The notes under the pieces: generated by a model | Told to the model about the DNA's origin: nothing | The model's database searches: none | Seen by the model: only the letters and a program-made list of their open reading frames with translations | DNA from: Patescibacteria group bacterium | Lineage (GTDB): Bacteria; Acidobacteriota; Polarisedimenticolia; Gp22-AA2 | Direction: 5' to 3' | Length of the DNA stretch: 64,000 nucleotides | Assembly (NCBI GenBank): GCA_035638115.1 | Contig: DASRAN010000007.1 | Coordinates: 5,215-69,214, forward strand | In this document: positions 28,623-55,369 of the stretch, one piece after another | How positions within the stretch are numbered: the first letter of the stretch is position 1 | Layout: each line of letters starts with the position of its first letter | Translations under genes and position numbers: made by a program

Positions 28623-29957
<1,335 letters not shown>

Positions 29958-30004
29958 CAATCGGGTCTCCTTCCGTCGGCCGGCGGGCCGGTGCGGTCCC
30001 ACAC

Positions 30005-30021
30005 AGCAACGCCGATACCAA
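30005..30021 (-). promoter_or_regulatory. Sigma54 (-24/-12) promoter of the EBP gene
   Basis: Minus strand TTGGTATCGGCGTTGCT: GG-N10-GC with TTGC(T). Confidence 0.75.
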
Positions 30022-30101
30022 CGGCCGCCGCGACGTCGCGTCAGGCACCCGTCGCGCCCAAGTGTCTGCCGTCATTCGCGATCCGGCCGGCGGCCGGCCG
30101 G

Positions 30102-36694: not shown

Positions 36695-37987
36695 ATGGCC
36701 ATGCAGACCCCGAGTTCCGAAAGTCCCGAAAGCCGCGACCTGCTCGTCCTGAAGGACGTCAGCAAGTCGTACGGCGCCGGGGTGCAGATGTACTGCGCGG
36801 TCGCGGACGTGACCCTCGTCATCCGGGAAGGGGAGTTCGTCAGCCTGCTGGGGCCGTCAGGCTGCGGCAAGTCGACGCTCCTGCGCATCATCACCGGCCT
36901 GAACCGCGCGACCACCGGAACCGTGCTCTACCGCGGCGAGCCGGTCGTCGAGGTGAACCCGCACGCCACCATCGTGTTCCAGACCTTCGCGCTCTATCCC
37001 TGGCTGACGGTCGAGGAGAACGTCGAGGTGGCGTTGAAGGCGCGGGGCGTGCCGCCGGGGGAGCGGCGCCAGCGTGCCCGGCACCTGATCGACATCGTCG
37101 GGCTGGATGGGTTCGAGTCGGCCTACCCGCGCGAGCTGTCGGGCGGCATGCGGCAGAAAGTCGGCTTCGCGCGGGCCATGGCGGTCGAGCCGGAATTGCT
37201 CTGTCTCGACGAGCCGTTCTCGGCCCTCGACGTGCTCTCCGCCGAGGCGCTGCGCGGCGAGCTGCTCGAGCTGTGGCTCACCAAGGCGATCCCGACCAAG
37301 GCGATTCTCATGGTGACGCACAACATCGAGGAGGCGGTCCTGATGTCGGATCGCGTGGTAATCATGGCGAAGAATCCCGGCCGCGTGCTGGCGGAGATTC
37401 CCGTGACGCTCCGGCATCCGCGCAAGCGCCAGGACACGGCGTTCCTGGCGATCGTCGACAAGATCTACGCCGCGGTCGCCGGCCGCACGCGTCCCGAGGC
37501 GGAGACCCTGGCGCAGGCGGCGCGCAAGCTGCCCAAGGCGCGCCTCAACGCCCTCGCCGGCCTGGTGGAGATCCTCGTGGCCGACGGCGGGCGCGCCGAC
37601 CTGCCGCGCCTCGGCGCCGACCTGTCGCTCGAGCTGGACGACCTGCTGCCGATCGTCGAGGCGGGGGAGCTCGTCGGCTTCTGCCAGGTGCAGGAAGGCG
37701 ACCTGCTCATCACGCCGCTCGGCCGCCTGTACGCCGAGGCCTCGATTCTCACGCGCAAAGAGATTGCCGCCGGGCGCGCCCTGCGCCTGCCGATGATCCG
37801 CTGGATCTACGAGACGTTGCAGCGCGATGACGACCGCCGGGTCGATCGCGACTTCTTCCTCGACAAGCTGCGCGAAGAGGTCGGCGATTTCGCCGAAGAC
37901 CAGCTCGATGTCGCCATCTCCTGGGGCCGCTTCGCCGAGCTGTACGCCTACGACAAGGACACCGACGAGCTGTTCCTCGAGCCCTGA
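36695..37987 (+). CDS. NitT/TauT ABC transporter ATP-binding protein with C-terminal AAA-associated domain
   Basis: GPSGCGKST, LSGGMRQ, LDEPFSALD, VTH; C-terminal WGRFAELYAYD. Confidence 0.92.
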   Translation: MAMQTPSSESPESRDLLVLKDVSKSYGAGVQMYCAVADVTLVIREGEFVSLLGPSGCGKSTLLRIITGLNRATTGTVLYRGEPVVEVNPHATIVFQTFALYPWLTVEENVEVALKARGVPPGERRQRARHLIDIVGLDGFESAYPRELSGGMRQKVGFARAMAVEPELLCLDEPFSALDVLSAEALRGELLELWLTKAIPTKAILMVTHNIEEAVLMSDRVVIMAKNPGRVLAEIPVTLRHPRKRQDTAFLAIVDKIYAAVAGRTRPEAETLAQAARKLPKARLNALAGLVEILVADGGRADLPRLGADLSLELDDLLPIVEAGELVGFCQVQEGDLLITPLGRLYAEASILTRKEIAAGRALRLPMIRWIYETLQRDDDRRVDRDFFLDKLREEVGDFAEDQLDVAISWGRFAELYAYDKDTDELFLEP

Positions 37988-38073
37988 AGGTGCTCCACGT
38001 CGGCGCCGCGCCGCTGTTGTAGACTCCCGCCAACGGACCTTCGCCGCCGTCGAACCAGTCGCCGTCGTGGGGG

Positions 38074-39056
38074 ATGGCCTCCATGCACTGTCCTGGATGC
38101 TCCCGGCCCCTTCCCGAAGCAGCGTCGCGATGCCCGCACTGCGGCGCGATCGCGCGCGCGGCCTCGGGCGCGGCCCGAAGCGCGGCCTCGAGCGCGGCCC
38201 CGAGCCCGCCGCCGGGCGCGCGTCGACCGCTGAGCGATCTGCCGACCGCCGACCTCCCCGGGGCCGAGGCGCCCGGCGCCTCGCCGTCGTCCGGGCGGAG
38301 GGATCCTCTGGCCCTCGCTCCAGGGAGCCTGTTCGCCGAACGCTTCCTGATCGTCGAGAAGATCGGCGAAGGCGGGATGGGCGAGGTCTACAAAGCGATC
38401 GACACGCGCCTCGACGGCCCGGTCGCGCTGAAGATGATCCGGCCGGCCACGGCGCGGCACGCCGGCAGCGTCGATCGATTCAAGGACGAGGTGCGGATCG
38501 CGCGCCAGATCAGCCACCCGTCGGTGAGCCGCGTGCACGACCTGGGCGAGATCGACGGGCAGGTCTACCTGTCGATGGAGTGGATCCAGGGGGAGACGCT
38601 GCGGCAACTTCTGCGGCGCGCCGGGTCGCTCGAGGCCGACCGGGCGATTCAGATCGCGGCCGAGATCGCCGGGGCGCTCGAGGCCGCGCACCAGCACGGC
38701 GTCGTCCACCGCGACCTGAAGCCCGAGAACGTCATGATCGACGAGCGCGGCGAAGTGCATGTCATGGATTTCGGCATCGCCGTGCTGGAGGAGGCGCAGG
38801 GCCGGACGGCGGCGCCCGGGCCGCTTGGGACTCCCGGCTACATGGCGCCGGGGCCGCCGAGCTGGCGCCCCAGGACGCCTCGGTCGCGTTCGCCAACGCC
38901 GCCGTCCGCTGCCTGCTCGGCCGCAACGACGAGGCTCTCGACCTGCTGGAGAAGGCGGTACGGCTGGGCGTCACGCGCGACGACATCGAGAACGACCCCG
39001 ACAGACCCCTGCACCCCCTGCCGCGCTACCGCCGCATCGTCGAGCTGGCGGGGTAG
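38074..39056 (+). pseudogene. Zinc-ribbon Ser/Thr kinase-TPR gene with internal deletion and frameshift
   Basis: CxxC-CxxC, GEGGMGEVYKA, VALK, HRDLKPEN, DFG and GTPGYMAP, then an abrupt switch at ~38850 to another frame encoding a TPR C-terminus (AELAPQDASVAFANAAVRCLLGRNDEALDLLEKA...NDPD). Confidence 0.75.
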
Positions 39057-39086
39057 CTAACGGGGTCACTAATAATGATGGGGGTC

Positions 39087-39455
39087 CTAGGGCCGGATCG
39101 GGACGATTTCGGGGTCGATCGAGGCGATTTCCCCGTCCTCGTCGTCGAACGTCTTGATGGTGTACTTGTCACGGATACCCGAGACCTGGCCCCTGCCGAC
39201 GGCGGGGAAGGAGCGACCCTGGGGGGCGCGGCCGTAGATGGTGTCCGCGTGGCACAGCGTCCGGCTGAAGGACCGCGACGGCTTACCCGCCACCAGAAAG
39301 TAGTCGGCCTCGTCGAAGACGACCGAGACCTTGGCGACCTCTTCGTGGTGATTCCTGAAGTGCCAGTGGACGAACTCTGTCTCCACCACCGGCTGGAAGT
39401 CGTTGACGACCTCGATCGACCCATCCGGCTGCAAGATGACTTCGATGTCCGCCAC
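39087..39455 (-). CDS. Small beta-rich hypothetical protein with C-terminal IDPEIV
   Basis: GTG start with GGGGAGG RBS; 122 aa; own sigma70-like promoter. Confidence 0.7.
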   Translation of the reverse strand: MADIEVILQPDGSIEVVNDFQPVVETEFVHWHFRNHHEEVAKVSVVFDEADYFLVAGKPSRSFSRTLCHADTIYGRAPQGRSFPAVGRGQVSGIRDKYTIKTFDDEDGEIASIDPEIVPIRP

Positions 39456-39566
39456 GAGTGGCCTCCCCGCGTGCCGTCGCACGCATCCCCGGTCCCCGGC
39501 CGCGACGAAGGCGAGTCCGCCGCCGCGTGCCTTAGCTCTGTGAGGGTTGGAACGAACGCTGAGGCG

Positions 39567-39596
39567 ACGGTACGCCGGGGCGGAGGGGGGTGTCAA
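39567..39596 (-). promoter_or_regulatory. Sigma70-like promoter of the 122-aa gene
   Basis: TTGACA-N18-TACCGT on the minus strand. Confidence 0.5.
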
Positions 39597-39628: not shown

Positions 39629-42600
39629 CTACGCCGCCTTCCCGAAGTCGGTTGGGATAGCGAACGACCTAATACGACGGTAAAGCTTCTGGCGATTCCA
39701 TCCGATAAATCTGGCAGCCTTCGTCTTGTCCCCTCGAAACCGGCGCAGGGCATCTTCGATCATGATCTGCTCGCCCGTCTTTTGAGCATTAACACGACCT
39801 CGTACATCGCGGACACCACCGATCGAATCCAAGCCCTCGTGTGAACCTATGACTTCCGGCCTGGAGCAGACAAGACCTGGGCGACCTGAGTCCGCAGACC
39901 CTGCAAGTGAAGGAAGTGTGTCAGGAAGGTCAGCGATAGTAATGACCTCGCGCGGATTCACAACCATAAGGCTCTCTATTAGGTGTTCAAGCTCACGCAC
40001 ATTGCCAGGCCAGGAGTACGAAAGTAGAGCCTCAAGGACACCAGGACCAAGCTCTCGCGGAGGCGTGTTTGCGTGAGCTTGTCGACTTAGAAACTCCGCG
40101 ACCAAAAGCGGAATGTCTTCCCTTCGCTCACGAAGTGTTGGCGCAACGATCCCGATGACGTTCAAGCGATAAAACAGGTCTTGTCGAAATCGTCCCTGAG
40201 CTATGAGCGAAGAGAGGTCTGCGTTGGTGGCAGCGATAACCCTAACATTAACCCGACGCGTTTGGTTCTCTCCCAACCGGCGAATCTCACGCTCTTGCAG
40301 AACACGCAGAAGCCGTGACTGCAAGTTGATCGATGTATTCGCGATCTCGTCAAGAAAAAGCGTCCCACCGCTTGCCTCTTCAAGCAACCCTACGCGATCG
40401 CGGTCCGCCCCGGTGAAGGCGCCACGTCGGCATCCGAACAACTCGACCTCAAGTAGGCCCTCTGGAAGGGCGCCACAATCAACAGTCAAAAACGGACCCT
40501 GGCGACGCGCACCATTCGCGTGTATTGCTCGGGCAATAAGCCCCTTGCCAGTCCCGCTTTCTCCGGTGATGAGAATTGTACTGTTCAAGTCGAGTACACC
40601 TGCGATAGTCTCATGCAACCGACGCATAACAACGCTTGTTCCTATAAGTTCCGGGAACCGACTTGCGGCCTGACGTCTGAGTCGAGAATTCTCTTCACGC
40701 ATTTGGCCGAACACACGAGCGTTCGCAATTGCGATTGCAGCTTGACTTGCGAACGATTCAACAAAGGTCCGGTCCTTGTCCGTGAACTTCTGAGCATTGC
40801 TCCGAGTATCGAGGTAGATGACCCCCAGTACCTCATCTCGAGACTTCATGGGGACGCACAAAATAGACCTAATCTCCCGAACGATGATGCTGTGCACCGA
40901 TGCAAGCGAGGGATCCTGACCCACGTCAGTCGAGAAAACGATGAGCCCTTGTTCTGCGCGGCGCAGTACAGATCGACTAAACGTTGTCAAGTCCTCCAGG
41001 TCTGTGTTCCCTATTCCTCTTGCGCAGGAGACGCGCATCTGTCCGTCCGTAGAGGACTTCAGAAACATGATTCCTCGTTCTGCCCGAATGCTGTCAATCG
41101 CTAGGTCAAGTATCCGGCCGAGTAGTGCATCTAGGTCGCGAGTAGAAGCGAGCTTCTGTCCGATCTCGCTCAGAGCAGCCAGCATTTTCCGGGAAATCAT
41201 CTCGCTTCGACGCAACGTAGCGGTGTTGAACCGTGAGCGACGTCCGTATTCACGCGCTAGTTCACGATAGTGAGCGAGTACCAGGGAGACGTGAGGCGTG
41301 GAGAGAAACGAGCGTCGGAATCGAGAATCACTTATGTCTTGCGAGACCTCCCGAAGAACGTTGGTGGCCCTACGCAGATACCATAAAGCACGAGACAACG
41401 ACAGTGTGCGCTCATGCAGTGTTGCTAGCAACGCAAGAGATTGCCAGGTAACATCGCGATTACGTGTCTCGTGAGCAATGGAGAGGGCATCCAGAGCGCA
41501 CGCGATAGCGTCACGTGGTTGTCCGACCGAAAGCAGCAGTGATGCTCTTATGAGGAGGCACTCTGAGTGAACTGATCTCAGCCCAACGCGCTGCGCCAAG
41601 CGTTGCACACGCGCTAGCTGGGCCATGTGTTGGGGCAAATCTACGCCCATTTCCACAGATAACAACGTGAGCGTAGTCTCAGCCTGGATCCAAATGTCAT
41701 ATGGTGCCGGCGCACGATAGGTCGAAATGGCCGTCTTGAGTCGTTCGATAGCCTCGGAGGAAAGACCGAGTCCGGATTCGTTGATGGCATGTAAGCGGTG
41801 TAGTTCAAGAAGGGACTGGTGGAATCGCATTTCGAGTGCAAGGCGAATTGCCTTTGTAATTACTCGCTTGGCCAAGGTATAGGCCCCAACAGCTACGAGC
41901 GAGTATGCCCATGTGGTCAGGTAAAGAATAGTTAGCGAAGGTATATTGTGAAGTTCGGTTCTCGCTCCGAGGCGTGAGAGGAGGGAGAGAGCAGATCCGG
42001 GGTAGCCCCCACGAACGAGGACCTGGGCCTGATTAAGATGGGCTATGAGTGCGTGGTGCTGGTCGCCCGAACGGCGAAACTCGGCAGCAGCAATGGCATT
42101 AAGTCGAATAGCAGGCTTCAATGCGCCCTGTGCTCGAAACGTCTCGCCTGCATTTACAAAGACGGTCCAACGGAGGTGGGCGAGTGATAACTCTCGGCTC
42201 AACGACCGTGCTGTTCGATACTGATCTCGGGCAGCGCTGTACCTACCAACATCAGATAGCAGGATTCCCGTATTTAGTACGGCCGTTGCGAATGCTTGCC
42301 AATTGCCAGACTGTTTAAGGAGGCGAGCTCGCCGCTGCTCGTATTTCAAGGCAAGCCTATATGTTCCTTCTCTCCAGTGGGCAGAGGCGATGGCACGTAG
42401 GGCATCTACGGCATATGACAACTCGTGTGTTCGCCGAGCAGCGGCAAGGGATCTGAACAGTACACGTCGACCACGATCCCTGCGTTCCAACCAACAGAGC
42501 CCGTCTCCTATGATCGCAAGAGCTTGCACGGCCCGCCCACTGTAGCCATTTATTCTACAGAGTCGGAGGGCCCTGCGCGCCTGTAGGATGCCTAAGGCGT

Positions 42601-44755
42601 AGTTGGATAATGCCAGCTCGCAGTATGCTCGGGAAATAAGAAGAGAGACCTGCGTATCGGGCGGAACGTCATCGCTAATCGCCACCCGAGTGAGTACGTC
42701 GCGACACTCGTGATAGCGCCCAGACTTGAACAGTGCAACAGCCAGTAACGCGGACAGTTGGGCCGAGTCAGAAGTCCCGTGTGCACTTGATGCTAGGGCA
42801 TTATGAAGGGGAGATATGGCGTGATGATAGTTGCCATGCTCCACAAAGGCGCGTCCCGCAAGACCATAACAACGGACAGATGATCCGTGGTTCCCAGCAG
42901 CGGCATGATGGTGACCAGCATATCCAAGATCGTGAGGGGTAGTTGCCCGAGCCTCGTAGAAGTCTGCAAGTCGTTGATGGAGGATTGCATGATGCGCAGT
43001 GTCCGGAGAATCGTTTAGGGACACGCGAAGGGAGTTGCTAGGCACGGAAAAGCAGTCGGGGTGATCGTCGTCGCTGGGTGTTACAAGAGCAAGCATAACT
43101 AGCCTGGAGATAACACCCTGGATGTCGTCATCTGAACGTCCCAGAAGAAGTGCGATGGTATGCGATGTCAAGGGAGCCGTAGAGATGCCTACAAGCCGTA
43201 ACACGTCAGTGTCCGAGGACGGTAGACTGTCGAGCAGAGGACCAGAAACGGTTCGGGCTATCTCCTTCTGAAGTCCAGAGCGGAGATGCGGTGAGTAACT
43301 GAGTACCCCCTGCTCGTAGGAAACTATTCCCCGAACTGAGTACTCACTCAGTAGAGCATCATTTATGAATGGGTGTCCACCAGAGTCAGTGTCAAGGTCG
43401 GAGACTAGATTGCTAGGTGCAACTGGGATACCTAGAGATTCTGCAACAGATGTGGCTAGCGTGTGTCGTGGAGAGCGGCCTATCGCGAGCATGTCGGGAA
43501 GTGCATGAGCAGCTAGTGAGTTGGAACGGTGCTCTCGCATCAGGCAGGTGATGGGAGGGCAGACCAAGATAATGGCAGTTGGAGGAAAGTGTGAGTTGCG
43601 AAGGCGAGCGATAAAGGGATGAGCGCGCTCGTATTCAGAATGAGGCAAGTTTAGCGAGAGGATCCATGGTCTCCAGGCCATTGCCTCGGGTGAGCGAGCG
43701 AGCAGGGCGAGGTCCTTCAAGGAATGTGTAATGCGAATTGCATAACCATTGCGGAAAAGGCGCAATAAGAGATATCGGGCGAGAGCCTCCAAGGTTGGTG
43801 AGGGGATCGCGTAGAAATAGAAAAGTAGTGGACGAATGACCGACTCAGTGCTGGACTTAACTATTGACTCGCAGATCCGTTGTACTTCCGGCTCGAAGTG
43901 CGTTAGGGAAGGTGATACATGCTTCGTCCCGGAGGTCGTACAGTGTCGCACTGTGTCGCTCGTTGACAAAGTCTTTAGCTTTTCGGAAACGTCGAGCGCG
44001 GAGAGCGGCCTATCGGCCGGGTTTGGTGAGAGGAGGGTGGAACAAAGTGAGCGAACCGCTCGTTCGAAGTGCTGTTCGCCAAGTGAGCTACTGTCGCGAT
44101 TATCGCTGTGCACGCCACGTTGTCCCAACAAGCACTCGGAAATGATCTTGCCGAGAGAATAGAGATCGGATGTGTAGGTGGTCCGTCCCTCGTTCATAGT
44201 TTCGGGGGCAGCATAATGCGGCGTAAACACTATAGCGTCTCGTAGAGTGCTCTCTACGTGCCTATGAGACGCTCCGAAGTCAATGACCTTAGGGATTGCA
44301 GGCGTGAGGGTAGAAGAATTCTGGGGGAGCAGGATGTGGGCGCTTTTTAAGTCTCCGTGGATGAACCCGCGGCGATGGAAGTAATCTAGGAAGCCACAGA
44401 CATTTGCTAGTTGCAGGAGAAGTAGATCGCGGGATGCGGTGCAGGCGAATGCTGCGATGTCGACGCCACGTATATGTTCGAGTACGAGGAAAGGCATTCT
44501 TGCGTGAGTTGTGTGACCAAAGTCCAGCAGTCTCGGAACGAATGGGTGATCGTTGAAGACGGTCAGAACCTCGATCTCTGCGCTGAACTGTCGTAATGCG
44601 GTGAGGGATCGATAGGAGTCAGTAGATGTATTGTATCGCTTGATAATGCGTGCTGTTCCGTCGACCGAACGAATGGCTTCCAAGATCGAACTGGACGACC
44701 CCTCTGCGAGGTTGGAAACAATATCGTAACCAGGGAATTCTGGAAGCTGATTCAT
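39629..44755 (-). CDS. Low-GC giant sigma54 EBP: diverged Ser/Thr kinase - degenerate NTPase - TPR - GAF - AAA+ - HTH
   Basis: 1708-aa open frame; HGDLKSAH/DFG/APE kinase remnants, TPR-like repeats, GAF (SILCVPM...GVIYLD), GESGTGKG, GAFTGA, WPGNVRELEH, GDKTKAARFIGWNRQKLYRR. Confidence 0.9.
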   Translation of the reverse strand: MNQLPEFPGYDIVSNLAEGSSSSILEAIRSVDGTARIIKRYNTSTDSYRSLTALRQFSAEIEVLTVFNDHPFVPRLLDFGHTTHARMPFLVLEHIRGVDIAAFACTASRDLLLLQLANVCGFLDYFHRRGFIHGDLKSAHILLPQNSSTLTPAIPKVIDFGASHRHVESTLRDAIVFTPHYAAPETMNEGRTTYTSDLYSLGKIISECLLGQRGVHSDNRDSSSLGEQHFERAVRSLCSTLLSPNPADRPLSALDVSEKLKTLSTSDTVRHCTTSGTKHVSPSLTHFEPEVQRICESIVKSSTESVIRPLLFYFYAIPSPTLEALARYLLLRLFRNGYAIRITHSLKDLALLARSPEAMAWRPWILSLNLPHSEYERAHPFIARLRNSHFPPTAIILVCPPITCLMREHRSNSLAAHALPDMLAIGRSPRHTLATSVAESLGIPVAPSNLVSDLDTDSGGHPFINDALLSEYSVRGIVSYEQGVLSYSPHLRSGLQKEIARTVSGPLLDSLPSSDTDVLRLVGISTAPLTSHTIALLLGRSDDDIQGVISRLVMLALVTPSDDDHPDCFSVPSNSLRVSLNDSPDTAHHAILHQRLADFYEARATTPHDLGYAGHHHAAAGNHGSSVRCYGLAGRAFVEHGNYHHAISPLHNALASSAHGTSDSAQLSALLAVALFKSGRYHECRDVLTRVAISDDVPPDTQVSLLISRAYCELALSNYALGILQARRALRLCRINGYSGRAVQALAIIGDGLCWLERRDRGRRVLFRSLAAARRTHELSYAVDALRAIASAHWREGTYRLALKYEQRRARLLKQSGNWQAFATAVLNTGILLSDVGRYSAARDQYRTARSLSRELSLAHLRWTVFVNAGETFRAQGALKPAIRLNAIAAAEFRRSGDQHHALIAHLNQAQVLVRGGYPGSALSLLSRLGARTELHNIPSLTILYLTTWAYSLVAVGAYTLAKRVITKAIRLALEMRFHQSLLELHRLHAINESGLGLSSEAIERLKTAISTYRAPAPYDIWIQAETTLTLLSVEMGVDLPQHMAQLARVQRLAQRVGLRSVHSECLLIRASLLLSVGQPRDAIACALDALSIAHETRNRDVTWQSLALLATLHERTLSLSRALWYLRRATNVLREVSQDISDSRFRRSFLSTPHVSLVLAHYRELAREYGRRSRFNTATLRRSEMISRKMLAALSEIGQKLASTRDLDALLGRILDLAIDSIRAERGIMFLKSSTDGQMRVSCARGIGNTDLEDLTTFSRSVLRRAEQGLIVFSTDVGQDPSLASVHSIIVREIRSILCVPMKSRDEVLGVIYLDTRSNAQKFTDKDRTFVESFASQAAIAIANARVFGQMREENSRLRRQAASRFPELIGTSVVMRRLHETIAGVLDLNSTILITGESGTGKGLIARAIHANGARRQGPFLTVDCGALPEGLLEVELFGCRRGAFTGADRDRVGLLEEASGGTLFLDEIANTSINLQSRLLRVLQEREIRRLGENQTRRVNVRVIAATNADLSSLIAQGRFRQDLFYRLNVIGIVAPTLRERREDIPLLVAEFLSRQAHANTPPRELGPGVLEALLSYSWPGNVRELEHLIESLMVVNPREVITIADLPDTLPSLAGSADSGRPGLVCSRPEVIGSHEGLDSIGGVRDVRGRVNAQKTGEQIMIEDALRRFRGDKTKAARFIGWNRQKLYRRIRSFAIPTDFGKAA

Positions 44756-44764
44756 CAGGACTCG

Positions 44765-44792
44765 AATGTAGAGTTTGTGCGAGTCCGGTCAA
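44765..44792 (-). promoter_or_regulatory. Sigma70-like promoter for the low-GC EBP
   Basis: TTGACC-N16-TACATT, 9 nt before the ATG, no obvious RBS. Confidence 0.45.
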
Positions 44793-44822
44793 GAAAAGGA
44801 AAGGGGGCCCGTTAGGGCCCCC
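44793..44822 (-). terminator. Intrinsic terminator after the peptide gene
   Basis: GGGGGCCC-TAAC-GGGCCCCC followed by TTTCCTTTT. Confidence 0.8.
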
Positions 44823-44849: not shown

Positions 44850-45122
44850 TTAGCAGCCGCCCAGGCCACATCGACCGCCGCCACCCCAGGTTGCAGTGTC
44901 AGCAGAAACCGTTCCACCAGTCGAGCGCGGGGACACCGTAGTGCCGCCCTGGACCGGGGCGCTGGAACCGAAGCCCAGGAACTGCATGAGGACCTGGAGG
45001 AAGCCGAAGTGCGTTCCAGTCGCGACCGGGTTCGAGTGGGGGGCGGCGATTGCAGCCGTCGGACCGAACGCCACCACCGCGAGAATCATCAGCACCGCTG
45101 CACTCTTCAGCATCTTGCTCAT
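44850..45122 (-). CDS. 90-aa secreted peptide precursor (signal peptide; C-terminal TATWGGGGRCGLGGC)
   Basis: AGGGGAGG RBS; Sec-type signal with AIA cleavage motif; dedicated sigma54 promoter and terminator. Confidence 0.8.
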   Translation of the reverse strand: MSKMLKSAAVLMILAVVAFGPTAAIAAPHSNPVATGTHFGFLQVLMQFLGFGSSAPVQGGTTVSPRSTGGTVSADTATWGGGGRCGLGGC

Positions 45123-45187
45123 CGCCCTACCTCCCCTTTTGGCTTCTCAGCCCGGTTATCATTTCGTCGTACTCGGGCGACCCTTAG

Positions 45188-45204
45188 AGCAACGACGATG
45201 CCAA
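45188..45204 (-). promoter_or_regulatory. Sigma54 (-24/-12) promoter of the peptide gene
   Basis: Minus strand TTGGCATCGTCGTTGCT matches TGGCAC-N5-TTGCW with correct GG-N10-GC spacing. Confidence 0.82.
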
Positions 45205-45213
45205 ATTCGTGAC

Positions 45214-45469
45214 TGTCTCGTGCCGCGTCGCGTATCCATAAGAAATGGCGTGAGATGTTGTCTTACGAAACTGTACCGAAAGGTACGGTACACCCTGCCC
45301 GGAACACGATTTAGTAAGTAGTTCACCCTAGGGACTTCTATCTATCAGCATTTACAGCAAGATACGGATGGTCTCGCGAGACGCCGATGAGACTGTTCAG
45401 TTATCGCTGTTATCGGGCTGTGTTTGCTTGAGATACGGCATTGGTCGTCTCAGGTCTTTGAAGTGAGAC
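45214..45469. promoter_or_regulatory. Candidate enhancer sites (TGAGA[C/T] / GTCTC[A/G] repeats) in an AT-richer intergenic region
   Basis: TGAGAT-gtt-GTCTTA 45251-45265; GTCTC-GC-GAGAC 45371-45382; TGAGAC 45388; TGAGAT 45429-N12-GTCTCA 45447-N11-TGAGAC 45464. Confidence 0.55.
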
Positions 45470-45505: not shown

Positions 45506-50752
<5,247 letters not shown>

Positions 50753-50820
50753 GGCCCCAGCCCTCAAGAACTTGCCGGGAAAGTACTCCGGTTCGCGCCC
50801 CCCCGCAAGGGCATACCCGC

Positions 50821-50884
50821 GGCGGCCTGCAACCGGCGGCGGTCTGCAACCCGCGGTGGCCTGTCCCGCGGCGGCCTGCACCAG
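50821..50884. repeat. Four imperfect 15-17-bp tandem repeats GGCGGCCTGCA(A)CC upstream of the kinase-EBP
   Basis: Units at 50821, 50838, 50855 and 50870. Confidence 0.6.
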
Positions 50885-50901
50885 GACGGGCGGAGCGTCG
50901 G

Positions 50902-52296
50902 CTAGTTGACGGGGATGTCGCGCGGGCCGGGGGAGTGGAACTGGAGGTCGGACTCGGCCGCCCGGCCGCGGCGGGTCAGCTTGCGCTGCCGCATGCGGGC
51001 GTCGGCGATGGCGATCAGGTCCTCGCAGGTGCGGCCGTCGGCGGGGAAGGAGGCCGATCCGAGGGTGACGTCGACGGCGATGGCGGTGTTGCGCGCCACC
51101 GCGAACTTGTGCCGCAGGACGCCCTGCTCGAGCCGGGTCGCGACCGCGTCGATCCGATCGGCCGCCACCCCGGTGAGGATCAGCAGGAACTGATCGCCGG
51201 CGTAGCGCACGCAGGTGTCGCCCGGCCGCATCTGGCCGCGGATGGCGCGCGCCAGGCCGCGCAGCACGCGGTCGCCCGCCTGCCGTCCGTAGCGCTCGTT
51301 GATCTCCCCGAAACCGTCGACGTCCAGCTCGATCAGGCTCAGGGTGGACTTCTGCTGCGCCGCGCGGCGCAGCTCCTGCTCGAAGCTGCTGAACAACTGG
51401 CTCGCCGCCGGCAGCCGCGTCAGCGGGTCGGATGCCGGGGAGGTGGCGTCCGCGCCCGGCGCCGCCGCTGCGCCGTCCTCCTGCGCCCCGTCGAGACGCT
51501 GCGCCGTGGTGATCAGCAGGCGCACCACCTCCGGGTCGCAGGTGGTGCCGGCCTCGTCGCGCAGATCGGCCAGGGCCTGCGAGGGGACGGCCGGCGTCCC
51601 TCCGGCGGGACCGGCCAAAAGCGACTCGTAGCGCTCCACGGCGCCGAGCACGCGCGCGGCGGCGGGGATCGCCTCGCCGCGCAGGCCGTCGGGTCCGCCG
51701 GTGCCGTCGAACTTCTCGTAACGCGAGCGGATGACGCGCGCCAGCGGCGCGGGCAGCCGCGACCGCTCGATCTGCTCCGCGTCGAGACCACGCAGCAGGA
51801 CGGCGGCGCGCACGACCGCGACGTCGGCGGGCGGCAGGCCGATCGCCATCGCGACTTCGGTGGCCATCGACTGGACCCGTCGCACGCGCCGCGCGGCCGC
51901 GTCGTTGACCGGATCGGCCGCGAACACCAGCGCGCCGATGATCGACTGGCTGGTCTCGACGATCTCGTCCCGGTGCCGGAGGCTCGATTGCGACGTCGAT
52001 CGGTCCTGCCGCAGCGTCAGCAGCAGGACGATGCCCGCGGTCAGCGCGCTCGCGGCGAGCGCGACACCCGCGGTGCTCAGCGTGAGCGGCGGCCATTCGG
52101 GACGATGGGGGAGCAGCAGGACGACCGCCGGCAGCAGGAACCCCGCGGCGACGGTCAGGGCGATCATCAGGCGGATGCTGCGGCTCAAGGTCGCGATCGC
52201 CTCCACGATGGCGGTGCGAGGGCGCCCCTCATCCCCCCGGCCGGAGCGCGCCCCGCACCCACCCAGAAGATCGGGCGCGGCGGGCGGCCGGTCCAT
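50902..52296 (-). CDS. Membrane-anchored degenerate HD-GYP + GGDEF protein
   Basis: Two TM helices; SRYEKFDGTGGPDGLRGEAIP (degenerate HD-GYP); DPLTRL, LDVDGFGEINERYG, RPGD I-site, AGDQF; start uncertain. Confidence 0.8.
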   Translation of the reverse strand: MDRPPAAPDLLGGCGARSGRGDEGRPRTAIVEAIATLSRSIRLMIALTVAAGFLLPAVVLLLPHRPEWPPLTLSTAGVALAASALTAGIVLLLTLRQDRSTSQSSLRHRDEIVETSQSIIGALVFAADPVNDAAARRVRRVQSMATEVAMAIGLPPADVAVVRAAVLLRGLDAEQIERSRLPAPLARVIRSRYEKFDGTGGPDGLRGEAIPAAARVLGAVERYESLLAGPAGGTPAVPSQALADLRDEAGTTCDPEVVRLLITTAQRLDGAQEDGAAAAPGADATSPASDPLTRLPAASQLFSSFEQELRRAAQQKSTLSLIELDVDGFGEINERYGRQAGDRVLRGLARAIRGQMRPGDTCVRYAGDQFLLILTGVAADRIDAVATRLEQGVLRHKFAVARNTAIAVDVTLGSASFPADGRTCEDLIAIADARMRQRKLTRRGRAAESDLQFHSPGPRDIPVN

Positions 52297-52414
52297 TTCA
52301 CTTTCGAAATCGGGACACACCGCGGAGCGGGAGCGGGCGGCGGCCTCCCGCGGGACCTGGAGAATCCGTGTGCTAGCATCGCCGGGAGAGATTTCCAGCC
52401 GTCGGGATGCCCTG

Positions 52415-55369
52415 ATGACACGACCGAAGAAGAAACCATCCTCGCGCGTCGCTCCCGACTCCACGAGAACCACTCCCGCTCCTCCTGCGCCGCCCGCGGG
52501 CGGCGCGCGCCGCCCGTTCCGCCGAATCGCCATCGCGGTCGCGCTGCTGATCGCCGCGGTCCTGGCCTGGGCGTCGGTGCGGCGGGTCGGTCCCGCCGAA
52601 CGCGCCTATCGCGTCGGCCGGGGCGGCGGGGCCGTCACCCGGCTCGCGCCGGGCCTGCGGGTCGTCGTTCCCGGGATCGCGAGGCTCGTCGTCGTCCCGC
52701 CCGATCCCCTGCAGCAGCAGGGGGAGGTGGCGCTGCGGACGCCCGAGGGCGCGGAGGTCAAGGTGTCGTGGGGGATCGTGGCCGCGATCCCCGACGCGGC
52801 TCTCGCCGCCCTGGTCGCCGACACCGGTGGGGGAGCCGATCCCGGCGCGGCCCTGCGTGGCGCCGCGCGCGAGGCGATCGAACGTTGGGGCGGCACGGCG
52901 TCGGTCGAGTCGATCGCCCTGGGCGAGGGGCGCGCCGGGGTCGAGAACGCCATCCGGACCCGGTTGACGACGCTGGGGTTCGAGACCCGTTCCGTGAGCC
53001 TGCGCTGGTCGAGCGGCACCGCCGAGGAGCGCGCCGCGCTCGCGGCCCGCGCCCTGGCAGCGCGCACCGTGGCCACCGGCGTGAAGGTCGCCATCATCGG
53101 CCTCGACGGAGCCGACTGGGAGGTGATCGAGCCGCTGATCGCGCGCGGCCGGCTGCCGACCCTGGCCCGGCTGCGGGCGCGCGCCGCATGGGGCCCGATG
53201 AAGTCGATGGACCCGATGCTCTCTCCGATCCTCTGGACCACCGTCGCGACCGGGAAGCCGCCCGATCAGCACGGCATCATCGATTTCCTGGTGCGCGACG
53301 CGCGCACCGGCAAGCCCGAGCCGGTCTCGAGCCGCGCCCGGCGAGTGAAGGCGCTGTGGAACATCACCACCGACGCCGGTCGCAGCGCCGACGTCATCGC
53401 CTGGTGGGCGACCTGGCCCGCCGAGGAGATCCAGGGTCACCTGGTCTCCGATCGCGTCGCCTACAGCACCTTCTCGTTCACCGGCGATCTCCCCGACCAG
53501 ACCGGGGCGACCTGGCCCGCCGACGATTTCCAGAAGCTGCGGCCCCTCCTGGTCGACGCCGCGAAGATCCGCGACGCCGAGCTGCGACGGTTCGCCGACG
53601 CCACGCCGGAGGAGTTCCGCCGGCTCGCCACCATCGTCGCCAGCGAGCGCTCGTACCAGGCCGCGGCTCTCGACCTTCTCAAGCGCGGGCAGCCCGATCT
53701 CTTCGCCCTCTATTACCAGGGGATCGACGAGGTGTCGCACCGCTTCGCGCACTTCATGCCGCCCAAGATGGCGATGGTCACGCAGGCGGACTACGCGCGC
53801 TACCACGGCACCGTCGAGGCGTACTACGAATACCAGGACGCGCTGCTCGGCGAGATCCTCCCGAAGCTCGATCCGCAAACCGAGATCCTCGTGCTCTCGG
53901 ATCACGGCTTCCGCAACGGCGGCGGCCGGCCGCCGGACGACCCGCCGTACATCGAAGGGAAGCCCGGTCTCTGGCACCGGCGGTATGGCATCTTCATGAT
54001 GACGGGACCGGTCACCGTGCCCGGGCGTCTCGACACCACCTCGCTGCTGGACGTCGCGCCGACGGTTCTCTACCTCCTCGGACTGCCGCGCGCGGAGGAC
54101 ATGCCGGGCCGGGTCGTGCAGGAGGGGATCGACCCCGGGTTCCGGGCCCGCGTTCCCGGGCGGAGCATCGCCACCTACGAGGGGATCGGCCGCACCACGC
54201 GACCGGCCCAGGACCTGGTCGCCGACAGCCGCGTCGACGACGAGATGATCGCCAAGCTGAGAAGCCTCGGGTACGTCGGCGGCGAGGTTGCGACCGGGTC
54301 GGACGGCGGCGCGGGCGGTCCCTCCTCGGGCGCGGCCTCCTCGGGTACGGGCTCCTCGGGCCCGGCCTCCTCCTCCGCTCCCTCGGGGGGCGGCGAAGCG
54401 CTGGTGACGGCGCACGTCAACGAGGCGATGCTCGAGCTGAAGAACAAGAACTATCCGCGCGCCGAGGCCGCGGTCGCGGCGGCGCTCCAGATGTCGCCGA
54501 CCCTGGTGCCGGCGCTCATCCTCAAGGCGCAGATCGCCCGCGAGCAGAAGCAGTACGACCTCGCCATCGACACCGCCAGGAAGATTCTGGATCTCGATCC
54601 GGAAGGGGAGCGGCAGTCGTACAGCCAGATCGCCCTGGTCTATCTCGACGCCGGCCGGACGCAGGAGGGGATCGCCTTCCTGCGCGACATGGCCCGCGAT
54701 CATCCCAAGGTGGGCGAGATCCCCGCGGCGCTGGGGATGCTGCTCCTGAAGACCGGCGACAAGACGGGGGCCGAGGCGGAGCTCCTGAAGTCGCTGCACC
54801 TCGACCCGTCGCTCGGCGAGCCGCTCACCGAGCTGTACACGCTCTACAAGGACACCGACAAGATCTCCACGCTCGAGCCGATCGTCCGCCAGGGGCTGGC
54901 GATCAACGACCAGTCGGTCGTGCATCACAACTGGATGGGGCTCATCTATCAGTGGAACAAGAACCTGGGGAAGGCCGAGCAGGAGTTCAAGCGGGCGATG
55001 GAGATCGACCCGGACTACGCCGCGACGATGGCGAACCTGGGCGCGCTCTATGGCCGTTCAGGCCGGCTTCCGGAGGCGGTGGAGATCCTGAAGCGGGCGG
55101 TCGGCAAGGACGACAACAATCTCGAGGCCTGGATCAACCTCGGGGCGGCCGAAGGCCGGATGAATCATCCGAAAGAGGCGATCACGGCGCTCGAGACGGC
55201 GCGCCGGAAAGGGGCACGCAGCACCACGCTCTACAACGCGCTGGCGCTGGCCTACCTGCAGGATCATCAGAAGGAACGGGCGCTCGGCTACCTGAAGGAG
55301 TCGCTCGTCATCGACCCGAGCCAGAAGGACGCGAAAGAGCTTCTGGAGATGATGAGCCGATCGTCCTGA
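52415..55369 (+). CDS. Alkaline phosphatase/NPP superfamily protein with N-terminal SPFH-like segment and C-terminal TPRs
   Basis: TM anchor; IIGLDGADW, SPILWTTVATG, VLSDHGF, SLLDVAPTVLYLLG, LRSLGYV; multiple C-terminal TPRs. Confidence 0.85.
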   Translation: MTRPKKKPSSRVAPDSTRTTPAPPAPPAGGARRPFRRIAIAVALLIAAVLAWASVRRVGPAERAYRVGRGGGAVTRLAPGLRVVVPGIARLVVVPPDPLQQQGEVALRTPEGAEVKVSWGIVAAIPDAALAALVADTGGGADPGAALRGAAREAIERWGGTASVESIALGEGRAGVENAIRTRLTTLGFETRSVSLRWSSGTAEERAALAARALAARTVATGVKVAIIGLDGADWEVIEPLIARGRLPTLARLRARAAWGPMKSMDPMLSPILWTTVATGKPPDQHGIIDFLVRDARTGKPEPVSSRARRVKALWNITTDAGRSADVIAWWATWPAEEIQGHLVSDRVAYSTFSFTGDLPDQTGATWPADDFQKLRPLLVDAAKIRDAELRRFADATPEEFRRLATIVASERSYQAAALDLLKRGQPDLFALYYQGIDEVSHRFAHFMPPKMAMVTQADYARYHGTVEAYYEYQDALLGEILPKLDPQTEILVLSDHGFRNGGGRPPDDPPYIEGKPGLWHRRYGIFMMTGPVTVPGRLDTTSLLDVAPTVLYLLGLPRAEDMPGRVVQEGIDPGFRARVPGRSIATYEGIGRTTRPAQDLVADSRVDDEMIAKLRSLGYVGGEVATGSDGGAGGPSSGAASSGTGSSGPASSSAPSGGGEALVTAHVNEAMLELKNKNYPRAEAAVAAALQMSPTLVPALILKAQIAREQKQYDLAIDTARKILDLDPEGERQSYSQIALVYLDAGRTQEGIAFLRDMARDHPKVGEIPAALGMLLLKTGDKTGAEAELLKSLHLDPSLGEPLTELYTLYKDTDKISTLEPIVRQGLAINDQSVVHHNWMGLIYQWNKNLGKAEQEFKRAMEIDPDYAATMANLGALYGRSGRLPEAVEILKRAVGKDDNNLEAWINLGAAEGRMNHPKEAITALETARRKGARSTTLYNALALAYLQDHQKERALGYLKESLVIDPSQKDAKELLEMMSRSS

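What the first reader, a model, noticed from the sequence alone, without database searches (positions are those of the whole stretch)
44850..45122. Secreted 90-aa precursor with a Trp-Gly-rich, Cys-x4-Cys C-terminal core
Seen: signal peptide (MSKMLKSAAVLMILAVVAFGPTAAIA), an amphipathic segment (FGFLQVLMQFLGF), a G/T/S spacer with repeated GGT (QGGTTV, TGGTV), and a terminal TATWGGGGRCGLGGC-stop with two Cys able to form a small ring. The gene is monocistronic with its own promoter and terminator. Inference: a pheromone or bioactive peptide precursor whose mature part is the C-terminal 10-15 residues. No RiPP-modifying enzymes lie nearby, so processing would be proteolytic or encoded in trans.
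Basis: partly seen in the sequence, partly recalled or inferred. Interest (0 to 1): 0.72.

Follow-up and report, generated by a model that had tools for sequence, protein, structure and literature searches.

The report
Sigma-54-driven secreted AIWGG-motif peptide gene
This is a real gene in an uncultured soil Acidobacteriota lineage for a small exported peptide, switched on from a sigma-54 promoter and wedged between two giant kinase/sigma-54-activator genes; its conserved business end is a short Ala-Ile-Trp-Gly-Gly motif present in one to eight copies in relatives, which suggests an undescribed peptide-signal cassette, although its function is untested.

Summary
The 90-codon ORF at 44850..45122 (-) is real. 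It has a Sec-type signal peptide, a Shine-Dalgarno site and its own terminator. About 35 distinct relatives exist, and dN/dS is 0.16-0.48.

The promoter is sigma-54 type (TGGCAT-N5-TTGCT, 45188..45203). It is the only such site in the window and is invariant in every related locus examined. GTCTC/GAGAC enhancer palindromes lie upstream of it.

The gene always follows a ~1740-aa Ser/Thr-kinase-STAND-TPR-GAF-sigma54-activator gene (EBP-A). It usually precedes a second, persistently low-GC one (EBP-B).

The family occurs only in one GTDB family of Acidobacteriota. It matches no Pfam, NCBIfam, PDB or Rfam entry and no paper in the library searched.

The invariant unit is [D/E/N]-x-A-I/T-W-G-G, and relatives carry 2-8 tandem copies, some with no Cys.

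No peptide-modifying enzyme lies within about 20 kb.

Best reading (~0.4): a sigma-54/EBP-controlled, Sec-exported precursor of a pheromone-like peptide. Rivals are a ZraP-like periplasmic stress or metal-binding protein, a RiPP modified in trans, and an antimicrobial peptide.

The parts
44850..45122 (-). Peptide gene: 90 codons plus TAA stop, 65.6% GC
   Evidence: ORF and translation. Homologues. dN/dS 0.16-0.48.
45045..45122 (-). Sec-type signal peptide, residues 1-26, predicted cleavage AIA|AP
   Evidence: Rule-based n/h/c analysis. AlphaFold helix at residues 3-19. A-x-A|A-P is conserved across the family.
44970..45011 (-). Conserved hydrophobic helix, residues 38-51 (HFGFLQVLMQFLGF); family motif phi-phi-[D/E/Q]-x-phi-phi-x-x-phi-G-phi
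   Evidence: AlphaFold helix at residues 37-48, local pLDDT about 68. Mean identity 0.76 among close and 0.37 among distant members. <H> 0.61, muH 0.21.
44907..44969 (-). Variable G/S/T/P spacer, residues 52-72, predicted disordered
   Evidence: Least conserved region: identity 0.14, with many length changes. pLDDT below 50.
44871..44906 (-). Conserved core unit, residues 73-84 (SADTATWGGGGR); family consensus [S/T]-T-[D/E]-x-A-I/T-W-G-G..[R/K/H]
   Evidence: Most conserved region: identity 0.63 over 29 sequences. Position-specific counts. Present in 2-8 tandem copies in relatives.
44853..44870 (-). Terminal Cys-x4-Cys loop, residues 85-90 (CGLGGC)
   Evidence: A Cys pair is present in 29 of 31 tabulated members, with loops of 2-5 residues. 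It is absent in several multi-unit members.
45130..45134 (-). Shine-Dalgarno site GGAGG, 8 nt before the ATG
   Evidence: Conserved in related loci.
45188..45203 (-). Sigma-54 promoter TGGCAT-N5-TTGCT (GG-N10-GC), 66 nt upstream of the ATG
   Evidence: Only match in the window; 0.02 expected by chance. It is the only invariant block in the alignment of 10 upstream regions. Present at -57 to -71 in nine loci and upstream of the peptide ORF in L030, L031 and L034. rpoN is present in the genome.
45371..45393 (-). Putative enhancer site 2: GTCTCA-N5-GTCTCGCGAGAC, including a perfect 12-bp palindrome
   Evidence: Coordinates. Conserved in L010, L012, L013 and L014. Of the 9 strict sigma-54 promoters in the genome, this is the only one with 6 half-sites within 350 bp; the others have 0-1.
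45447..45469 (-). Putative enhancer site 1: GTCTCA-N11-TGAGAC inverted repeat
44803..44822 (-). Intrinsic terminator of the peptide gene (GGGGGCCC-TAAC-GGGCCCCC followed by a T-run)
   Evidence: Equivalent hairpins follow the gene in L003, L011, L014, L015 and L016.
44765..44792 (-). Sigma-70-like promoter (TTGACC-16-TACATT) for the downstream EBP-B gene
   Evidence: TTGACC immediately after the terminator recurs in L003, L011 and L014.
45506..50752 (-). EBP-A: Ser/Thr kinase, AAA_16 (STAND), TPR, GAF, sigma-54 AAA+ and HTH_8 domains. The mechanical ORF runs to 52096, but the kinase starts at residue 456 of it, so the true start is near 50752.
   Evidence: Pfam. Orthologues are about 1720-1830 aa with the kinase at the N-terminus. 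No transmembrane segment. Lies upstream of the peptide gene in every locus with enough contig.
39629..44755 (-). EBP-B: 1708-aa paralogue (kinase-like, TPR, GAF, sigma-54 AAA+ and HTH_8 domains), 54% GC in a ~70% GC genome
   Evidence: Pfam. GC 54-57% in six loci. Orthologue alignment A4. Downstream of the peptide gene in most loci; absent in G007, G019 and G011.

Best explanation
Shown or near-shown: the gene encodes a 90-aa pre-peptide. It is transcribed only when RNA polymerase-sigma54 at TGGCAT-N5-TTGCT is activated by an enhancer-binding protein bound at the upstream GTCTC/GAGAC palindromes. The obvious activators are the flanking cytoplasmic giants EBP-A (always present) and EBP-B (usually present). 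The product is exported by Sec and cleaved after AIA26. This leaves a ~64-aa, largely disordered periplasmic or extracellular peptide made of a short hydrophobic helix, a variable Gly/Ser/Thr/Pro tether and a conserved C-terminal unit, [S/T]-T-[D/E]-x-A-I/T-W-G-G..R, followed by a small loop that is probably disulfide-closed.

Inferred: the A-I-W-G-G unit is the functional epitope. In relatives it is amplified to 2-8 copies, and copy number changes rapidly between close relatives. The precursor would therefore work like a pheromone or hormone polyprotein: proteases outside the cytoplasm release or expose AIWGG-containing peptides that act as a diffusible signal. The kinase-TPR-GAF activators would set the output and possibly, directly or through a membrane receptor kinase with a periplasmic TPR domain, sense it.
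For: - Gene reality: homologues and purifying selection.
- Sigma-54 control: a unique promoter that is invariant across loci sharing only 30-40% peptide identity. It is the only sigma-54 promoter in the genome with a GTCTC/GAGAC cluster. rpoN is present.
- Cassette: EBP-A, peptide, EBP-B synteny in the window and in L003, L010-L014, L029-L031, L033, L117, L118, L035 and L128/129. Both EBPs lack transmembrane segments.
- Export: signal-peptide features.
- Unit hypothesis:
  - The core is the most conserved region.
  - Tandem units of 7, 8, 10 and 14 residues occur in P0017, G006, G008, G011, G017, G021, G022 and P0040-P0051.
  - The repeats are real at DNA level: 24 bp x 8 at 97% identity and 42 bp x 3.3 at 84%.
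  - AlphaFold predicts no folded domain: pLDDT 57 for the single-unit form and 50 for a multi-unit form.
- Signal-like features:
  - The propeptide gene lies next to TPR-containing regulators.
  - The Cys-loop residues are hypervariable beside an invariant motif.
  - Genus g8 carries two tandem peptide genes.
  - A kinase-TM-TPR receptor-type kinase lies two genes away in L010 and L013.
Against: - There is no evidence of transcription, translation, cleavage or secretion across the outer membrane.
- No common protease site flanks the units. Spacers end in K, R, H, D or N.
- Peptide pheromones are rare in diderm bacteria, and no Opp-type importer is consistently linked.
- The neighbouring receptor kinase is not universal. 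It is absent in L012 and in the g18 clade, and the window's own copy looks truncated.
- The EBPs could respond to purely intracellular cues, with the peptide as a non-signalling effector.
- His- or Cys-rich endings would equally fit metal binding.
Confidence: 0.4

Rival explanations
1. Periplasmic stress or metal-handling protein, a functional analogue of ZraP, Spy or CpxP. On this reading the sigma-54/EBP pair induces a small Sec-exported protein, and its Trp/Gly/His/Cys-rich units bind a metal ion or unfolded envelope proteins. It stays in the periplasm as an intact 64-aa chain and is not a signal.
For: - It is sigma-54-dependent and lies next to an EBP gene.
- It is small, Sec-exported and Gly/Trp-rich, with a Cys pair.
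- Cys-less relatives instead carry regularly spaced His (AAIWGGH x4 in G011, GAIWGGH in G022, P0043 and P0049), so either thiols or imidazoles are usually present.
- From memory, not tested here: E. coli zraP is sigma-54/ZraR-dependent and its product has Gly/His/Trp/Cys-rich ends, and the prion octarepeat PHGGGWGQ binds Cu(II).
Against: - There is no Pfam or NCBIfam match to LTXXQ/Metal_resist or any other family.
- The ligand-type residue is not conserved. The position after WGG(SG) is R, K, H or Y. The 8-unit G008 form (DSAIWGGK) has neither His nor Cys.
- The EBPs carry kinase, STAND, TPR and GAF sensors rather than a periplasmic metal-sensing histidine kinase.
Confidence: 0.2
2. RiPP precursor whose A-I-W-G-G cores, and/or the terminal Cys, are modified by enzymes encoded elsewhere (for example Trp cross-linking, prenylation or thioether formation). 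The conserved helix would serve as the recognition sequence.
For: - The layout resembles leader, recognition helix, variable spacer and conserved core.
- Relatives have multi-core precursors.
- The invariant Trp sits in a Gly-rich context.
Against: - No radical-SAM, YcaO, lanthipeptide, P450, prenyltransferase, C39-ABC or other maturase lies within ~20 kb in the window or in any of ~15 related loci.
- A classical Sec signal peptide is unusual for RiPPs and removes the peptide from cytoplasmic ATP- or SAM-dependent enzymes.
- Among the genome's sigma-54 promoters, only the peptide gene has the GTCTC/GAGAC cluster.
Confidence: 0.12
3. Antimicrobial peptide (bacteriocin- or microcin-like): a membrane-seeking hydrophobic helix joined to a Gly-rich, disulfide-looped head, released to kill competitors.
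For: - It has a hydrophobic helix and a Gly-rich region with a terminal disulfide loop.
- From memory: it formally resembles the Y-G-N-G-V-x-C-x4-C box of class IIa bacteriocins and the C-terminal disulfide of microcin V.
- Its loop residues are variable.
Against: - No immunity gene, dedicated exporter or double-glycine leader is present.
- The mature peptide is near-neutral (net +1).
- The Trp-to-Cys spacing varies from 1 to 8, so there is no fixed pediocin-type box.
- The gene is a vertically inherited, syntenic, mostly single-copy chromosomal gene present in most good genomes of one family. It is not a patchy mobile trait.
- Cys-less repeat forms such as DSAIWGGK x8 do not look membrane-active.
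Confidence: 0.1
4. Self-assembling or surface-structural peptide. The AIW strands, separated by turn-forming G/N/D spacers, would stack into a Trp-ladder sheet or fibril (a functional-amyloid-like matrix component) produced under sigma-54 control.
For: - Relatives have short hydrophobic-aromatic units separated by Gly/Asn/Asp-rich turns.
- From general knowledge, sigma-54 regulons often concern the cell exterior. Pilin genes are among this genome's sigma-54 promoters.
Against: - Unit length varies (7, 8, 10 and 14 residues) and many members have a single unit.
- AlphaFold gives no sheet with confidence (pLDDT 50).
- No nucleator or secretion partner genes are present.
Confidence: 0.06

Closest known systems
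RRNPP-type peptide signalling of Bacillota (Rap-Phr, PlcR-PapR, NprR-NprX)
   Same: A small Sec-exported pro-peptide gene lies directly beside the gene of a cytoplasmic TPR-containing regulator. The conserved active part lies toward the C-terminus of the pro-peptide. No modifying enzyme is needed.
   Different: - The host is a diderm acidobacterium.
- The regulators are 1700-aa kinase-STAND-TPR-GAF sigma-54 activators, not HTH-TPR RRNPP proteins.
- The promoter is sigma-54 type.
- No Opp importer is linked.
- The motif is amplified in tandem.
- Nothing shows that the peptide is sensed.
Polyprotein peptide precursors of eukaryotes (yeast alpha-factor; fungal Kex2-processed repeat proteins, PMC7329392)
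   Same: A signal peptide is followed by tandem copies of one short unit, and copy number differs between close relatives.
   Different: - This is a bacterium.
- No dibasic Kex2-type site lies between units.
- Many members, including the window's, have a single unit plus a Cys loop.
zraP-zraSR and pspA-pspF: sigma-54/EBP-controlled small envelope-stress proteins (from general knowledge)
   Same: A small gene with a sigma-54 promoter lies next to its activator gene. For ZraP, the product is Sec-exported and Gly/His/Trp/Cys-rich.
   Different: - No sequence or profile similarity was found.
- The product is disordered rather than a helical LTXXQ fold.
- The activators carry Ser/Thr-kinase, STAND and TPR inputs instead of a two-component receiver domain.
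Multi-core RiPP precursors (cyanobactins; Trp-crosslinked darobactin, streptide and tryglysin classes)
   Same: A short Trp-containing core is repeated in some precursors, behind a conserved N-terminal region.
   Different: - It has a Sec signal peptide.
- No maturase lies in any of ~15 loci.
- The residue following the motif is not fixed, so no common Trp-Lys pair exists.

Membership tests
Sec (SPase I) secreted protein | N-terminal positive n-region, hydrophobic h-region of 7-15 residues, small residues at -3 and -1 (A-x-A) | tested here: met
   K3 and K6; h-region Kyte-Doolittle mean 3.05; AIA|AP after residue 26. A-x-A|A-P is conserved in 29 sequences. AlphaFold helix at residues 3-19. SignalP was not available.
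Sigma-54-dependent gene | -24/-12 promoter with GG-N10-GC (TGGCAC-N5-TTGCW) | tested here: met
   TGGCATCGTCGTTGCT at 45188..45203; unique in the window, 0.02 expected by chance. Invariant in the 10-locus alignment and in further loci.
Sigma-54-dependent gene | rpoN in the genome, and an enhancer-binding AAA+ activator with upstream binding sites | tested here: met
   Sigma54_DBD found on contig C93. Two flanking proteins carry Sigma54_activat plus HTH_8. Conserved GTCTC/GAGAC palindromes lie at -249 to -347. Actual dependence was not testable.
RRNPP peptide quorum sensing | Cognate receptor is an RRNPP-fold HTH/TPR (or Rap) protein encoded next to the propeptide gene | tested here: not met
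   The neighbours have TPR_12/TPR_MalT repeats, but within a kinase-STAND-GAF-sigma54 AAA+ architecture.
RRNPP peptide quorum sensing | The mature peptide is re-imported by Opp and binds the receptor | not testable with these tools
   Only a TauB/SsuB-like ABC system (ABC_tran plus AAA_assoc_C, BPD_transp_1) is nearby, and only in some loci.
RiPP precursor | Maturase gene(s) clustered with the precursor gene | tested here: not met
   Pfam scans of window ORFs from 23 to 64 kb and of neighbours in about 15 loci found none.
RiPP precursor | Post-translational modification of core residues | not testable with these tools
   This needs mass spectrometry.
Class II bacteriocin / microcin | Double-glycine leader, C39-peptidase ABC exporter and an adjacent immunity gene | tested here: not met
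   It has a Sec signal peptide instead. No exporter or small immunity ORF lies between the peptide gene and the EBP genes.
Pediocin-like (class IIa) box | Fixed Y-G-N-G-V-x-C-x4-C | tested here: not met
   The Trp-to-Cys gap is 1-8 residues and the loop is 2-5.
ZraP/CpxP/Spy (LTXXQ) periplasmic proteins | Match to the Pfam LTXXQ or Metal_resist models; helical hairpin fold | tested here: not met
   No family matched for the window protein or for any of 29 members. The model is mostly disordered.
Tandem-unit (polyprotein) peptide precursor | Signal peptide followed by two or more copies of one short unit | tested here: inconclusive
   The window's own peptide has one unit. At least 20 relatives have 2-8 units. 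Release of the units is untested.

The most novel reading that the evidence does not exclude
The cassette is a peptide autoinducer circuit in a diderm phylum. A sigma-54 promoter drives a Sec-exported polyprotein-like precursor. AIWGG-containing peptides, with a variable Cys loop acting as a specificity tag, accumulate outside the cell. They are sensed through TPR domains, either on the membrane receptor Ser/Thr kinase nearby or, after uptake, on the giant kinase-STAND-TPR-GAF activators. This feeds back on the same promoter. It would be a sigma-54-based, Hanks-kinase-coupled counterpart of RRNPP quorum sensing in Acidobacteriota.
Probability: 0.22. Interest if true: 0.85.

Novelty: new variant of a known kind. 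Interest (0 to 1): 0.62.

Why it matters
Peptide-based cell-cell signalling is textbook for Gram-positive bacteria but almost unknown in diderm soil phyla, and Acidobacteriota are abundant yet genetically opaque.

This cassette has clean, testable parts: one promoter, defined enhancer palindromes, one or two activators, and one small secreted product with a 5-residue invariant motif. It offers a direct way to ask three questions:
- What do giant kinase/sigma-54 activator fusions sense?
- Do Acidobacteriota use secreted peptides as signals?
- Why is a short Trp-Gly motif amplified up to eight-fold?

Even if the peptide turns out to be a periplasmic stress or metal-binding factor, it defines a new protein family with an unusually explicit regulatory context.

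Tried and rejected
- **Known protein or RNA families.** Pfam and NCBIfam gave nothing significant for the window protein or for 29 members. The only recurrent hit was a weak signal-peptide-level match to NF040554 mini_HHHH (best E 0.021). A PDB profile search gave only noise at E 1.8. Rfam gave only a sub-threshold MicX hit.
- **Structure.** AlphaFold of the single-unit form (pLDDT 57) and of a multi-unit form (pLDDT 50) gave no fold, so no fold search was run.
- **GTDB species genomes scanned by peptide pattern.** The first scan found nothing. The last scan, using the EBP-B N-terminal alignment, gave the phylum name but mostly unrelated kinases.
- **False positives.** P0026 and P0038 from the profile search are unrelated repeat proteins.
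- **Bacteriocin and pediocin-box reading.** Rejected because spacing is variable and no immunity gene or exporter is present.
- **Regular beta-roll or solenoid (RTX-like) reading of the repeats.** Rejected because unit length varies (7, 8, 10 and 14 residues).
- **Lipoprotein, Tat, pilin and WXG100 readings.** Rejected because there is no lipobox, no twin-arginine motif, no class III signal and no Pfam hit.
- **UbiD-like decarboxylase as maturase.** It lies next to the peptide genes in G007 but 13 kb away in the window. This was judged a product of local rearrangement.
- **Other regulon members.** A genome-wide search found no second sigma-54 promoter with the GTCTC/GAGAC cluster.
- **Literature.** Five searches found nothing on the motif or the cassette.
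Full report
**1. The observation**

- GGAGG lies 8 nt upstream of the ATG.
- An 8-bp all-GC hairpin with a T-run lies at 44803..44822.
- The N-terminus has the three parts of a Sec/SPase I signal: Lys3 and Lys6, a hydrophobic core, and AIA|AP.
- AlphaFold with a 29-sequence alignment gives helices at residues 3-19 and 37-48 and low confidence elsewhere (mean pLDDT 57).
- The 'amphipathic' segment is better described as a short hydrophobic helix (<H> 0.61, muH 0.21).

**2. It is a real gene**

- A search of 5.8 billion proteins found 12 close homologues (50-87% identity).
- A profile search of 1.84 billion cluster representatives found 24 true members. Two further hits are unrelated repeat proteins.
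- A second search, seeded with a multi-unit member, found 12 more.
- Pairwise dN/dS of the gene is 0.16-0.48.
- Conservation is uneven. In the 29-sequence alignment the core preceding the Cys pair is the most conserved part (0.63 mean pairwise identity). The spacer is the least conserved (0.14) and varies in length.

**3. The promoter is sigma-54 type**

- TGGCATCGTCGTTGCT at 45188..45203 (-), 66 nt before the ATG, is the only match to TGGCAY-N5-TTGCW in the 64-kb window (0.02 expected).
- TGGCAT-N5-TTGCT lies at -57 to -71 in every related locus where upstream DNA is available, including members with only 30-40% peptide identity.
- In a 10-locus alignment of the upstream regions it is the only invariant block.
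- Upstream lie a GTCTCA-N11-TGAGAC inverted repeat (45447..45469) and GTCTCA-N5-GTCTCGCGAGAC (45371..45393). Both are conserved in the closer loci.
- The 3.25-Mb, 73%-complete assembly has nine strict sigma-54 promoters. Only this one carries such a half-site cluster: 6 within 350 bp, against 0-1 for the others and a background of 0.86.
- rpoN is present in the genome.

**4. The cassette**

- The upstream gene (45506 to about 50752) encodes EBP-A, a Ser/Thr kinase-AAA_16-TPR-GAF-Sigma54_activat-HTH_8 protein.
- The downstream gene (39629..44755) encodes EBP-B, a 1708-aa paralogue.
- Neither protein has a transmembrane segment.
- The order EBP-A, peptide, EBP-B recurs in four metagenome contigs, in the multi-core member's contig, in sister genomes G001, G003, G006, G008, G010, G017, G021 and G022 and in L128/L129.
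- EBP-A is upstream wherever the contig allows. EBP-B is missing in G007, G019 and G011, which keep EBP-A, the promoter and the peptide. EBP-A is therefore the constant partner.
- After the peptide's terminator, a TTGACC -35 box begins a sigma-70-like promoter for EBP-B.

**5. Distribution**

- With the family profile, 0 of about 370 other genomes sampled across the phylum have the gene. Within the window's own GTDB family, 11 of 29 genomes have it, including 8 of the 11 high-quality ones.
- Several apparent absences are assembly breaks. In G004, G005, G012, G013, G020 and G023 the contig ends within or right after EBP-A. G008 and G021 carry divergent repeat forms that the profile missed.

**6. 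What is conserved: the main correction**

The Cys pair is frequent but not defining.

- It is present in 29 of 31 tabulated members.
- The Trp-to-Cys distance is 1-8 residues, the loop 2-5 and the tail 0-2.
- The invariant element is [S/T]-[T/P]-[D/E/N]-x-A-I/T/V-W-G, usually followed by G and, a few residues on, a basic residue.

Many relatives repeat the unit:

| Member | Units |
|---|---|
| P0017 | four EAIWGGSGx units, 42-bp period, 84% DNA identity |
| G008 | eight DSAIWGGK units, 24-bp period, 97% identity, no Cys |
| G011 | AAIWGGH-type x5, no Cys |
| G022 | GAIWGxx x4, no Cys |
| G017 | GAIWGGKPGD x4, then GAIWGCKTC |
| G021 | five units, ending GAIWGCKGPC |
| G006 | two units |
| P0040-P0051 | 3-6 units with G/N/D/H/R/K spacers of 2-10 residues |

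- Copy number differs between close relatives: 3, 5, 6 and 6 units in P0041, P0039, P0040 and P0042.
- Genus g8 carries two tandem peptide genes.
- Unit length varies (7, 8, 10 and 14 residues), and AlphaFold finds no fold in a six-unit member (pLDDT 50). The units therefore behave as beads on a string, not as a repeat domain.
- The window's peptide is a single-unit form with T in place of I (TATWGGGGR) and a C-x4-C end.

**7. What it is not**

- It matches no Pfam, NCBIfam, PDB or Rfam family.
- No radical-SAM, YcaO, lanthipeptide, P450 or prenyltransferase gene, C39-ABC exporter or immunity-like gene occurs among the window ORFs scanned (23-64 kb) or in the related loci.
- The neighbourhood is regulatory and housekeeping. 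It holds a Phosphodiest-TPR protein, an ABC importer, a Ser/Thr kinase, a third small EBP, UbiD, SelB, a sigma-70 factor, PBP1 and a GGDEF protein.
- Five literature searches found nothing on the motif or the cassette.

**8. Mechanism**

Shown or strongly indicated:
- Transcription depends on sigma-54 and an EBP.
- The product is exported by Sec.
- The exported product is small and disordered, and its constrained part is the AIWGG unit.

Inferred: what the peptide does.

I favour a pheromone-like precursor (about 0.4) for these reasons:
- The gene sits beside TPR-bearing regulators, as the propeptide genes of RRNPP systems do.
- Tandem amplification of a short unit behind a signal peptide is the hallmark of hormone or pheromone polyproteins.
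- The loop next to the invariant motif is hypervariable.
- In L010 and L013 a receptor-type kinase (zinc ribbon, kinase, one transmembrane segment, TPR ectodomain) lies two genes away.

Against this reading:
- No shared protease site flanks the units.
- No importer is linked.
- The receptor kinase is not universal.

The main rival (about 0.2) is a ZraP-like periplasmic stress or metal-binding protein. The His-rich Cys-less variants favour it. The non-conserved ligand position and the His- and Cys-free G008 form weaken it. A RiPP modified in trans (0.12), an antimicrobial peptide (0.10) and a self-assembling matrix peptide (0.06) are less likely, for the reasons given under the rival explanations.

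**9. Earlier notes**

After I had found the repeat variants, a look-up showed that an earlier agent, working on another genome, had described the same 'AIWG-repeat cassette' (e1-907139). This agrees with my reading but is not independent evidence of function. Same-genome notes on the module, the enhancer repeats, the low-GC paralogue and a third EBP match what I saw.

One nuance concerns EBP-B. In the five-sequence orthologue alignment the kinase-like domain keeps invariant K39, HGD(133-135), D159-x-G and A-P-E. It is therefore degenerate in the Gly loop and the catalytic-loop Asn, but not wholly eroded.

**10. Verdict**

- This is an undescribed, lineage-restricted peptide family in an unusually explicit sigma-54/dual-activator cassette. 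Its function is unknown and it is most likely a signalling peptide.
- Novelty: a new variant of a known kind (regulator-linked secreted propeptides).
- Interest: 0.62.

Noticed in passing
39629-44755 (EBP-B); also L010, L011, L012, L013, L014, L003: EBP-B is 54-57% GC (GC3 0.54-0.63) in every locus from several genera. EBP-A and the flanks are 68-74% GC (GC3 about 0.9). This compositional anomaly has persisted through speciation and has not been ameliorated. Public gene callers miss most of EBP-B in L010 and L128, calling only the C-terminal 517-626 aa.
   Followed up: partly
G020:C137, G012:C385, G013:C133, G005:C122, G004:C152, G023:C124, G017:C97: In at least seven sister MAGs the contig ends within or just after EBP-A, exactly where the peptide gene should follow. 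This may reflect the sharp GC drop or strain-level hypervariability of the peptide locus. It also inflates the apparent absences of the gene.
   Followed up: partly
38023-39060 (+): The neighbouring Ser/Thr kinase gene looks truncated and frameshifted in this MAG. The kinase N-terminal part is in one frame (38074..39060) and the conserved C-terminus (...RYRRIVELAG) is in another (37827..39056). Orthologues in L013 (763 aa) and L010 (494 aa) are zinc-ribbon, kinase, one-TM, TPR receptor-type kinases.
   Followed up: partly
28623-30071 (-) and 30202-32031 (+): A third, sensor-less EBP (Sigma54_activat plus HTH_8, 459 aa) sits behind a near-consensus sigma-54 promoter, TGGTAT-N5-TTGCT, with TGTGAC/GTCAC-type upstream repeats. 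It is divergent from a UbiD-family decarboxylase gene. In the g18 clade a similar small EBP directly follows EBP-B. In G007 the UbiD gene abuts the peptide genes.
   Followed up: partly
50753-52096 (-): The mechanical 2196-aa ORF of EBP-A over-extends by about 450 codons at its 5' end. The kinase domain starts at residue 456 and orthologues are about 1740 aa. The extension overlaps the oppositely oriented Phosphodiest-TPR gene frame (51731..55369).
   Followed up: partly
45135-45187 (-): The 5' untranslated leader (GGTCGCCCGAGTACGACGAAATGATAACCGGGCTGA...) is nearly identical in the window, L012 and L013, although those peptides share only ~55% identity. GCCCG/CGGGC could form a hairpin. There is no Rfam match.
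   Followed up: no
39087-39596 (-); L013 7081-7449; L010 15661-16029: A conserved 122-aa cytoplasmic protein of unknown function (VADIEVILQPDGSIEV...DPEIVPIRP; no Pfam hit) directly follows EBP-B in three loci.
   Followed up: no
24681-26624 (+): A SelB (selenocysteine-specific elongation factor) gene is present, so the organism probably uses selenocysteine. The peptide gene ends in TAA, so this has no bearing on it.
   Followed up: no
G007:C27 96400-96975 (L028 9865-10479); G019:C365 (L032 6161-6777): Genus g8 has two tandem peptide genes about 50 nt apart, probably one transcript, with different cores (TTDGAIWGCSLRGTC and RPDEAIWGGCRARGTC). It has no EBP-B.
   Followed up: partly
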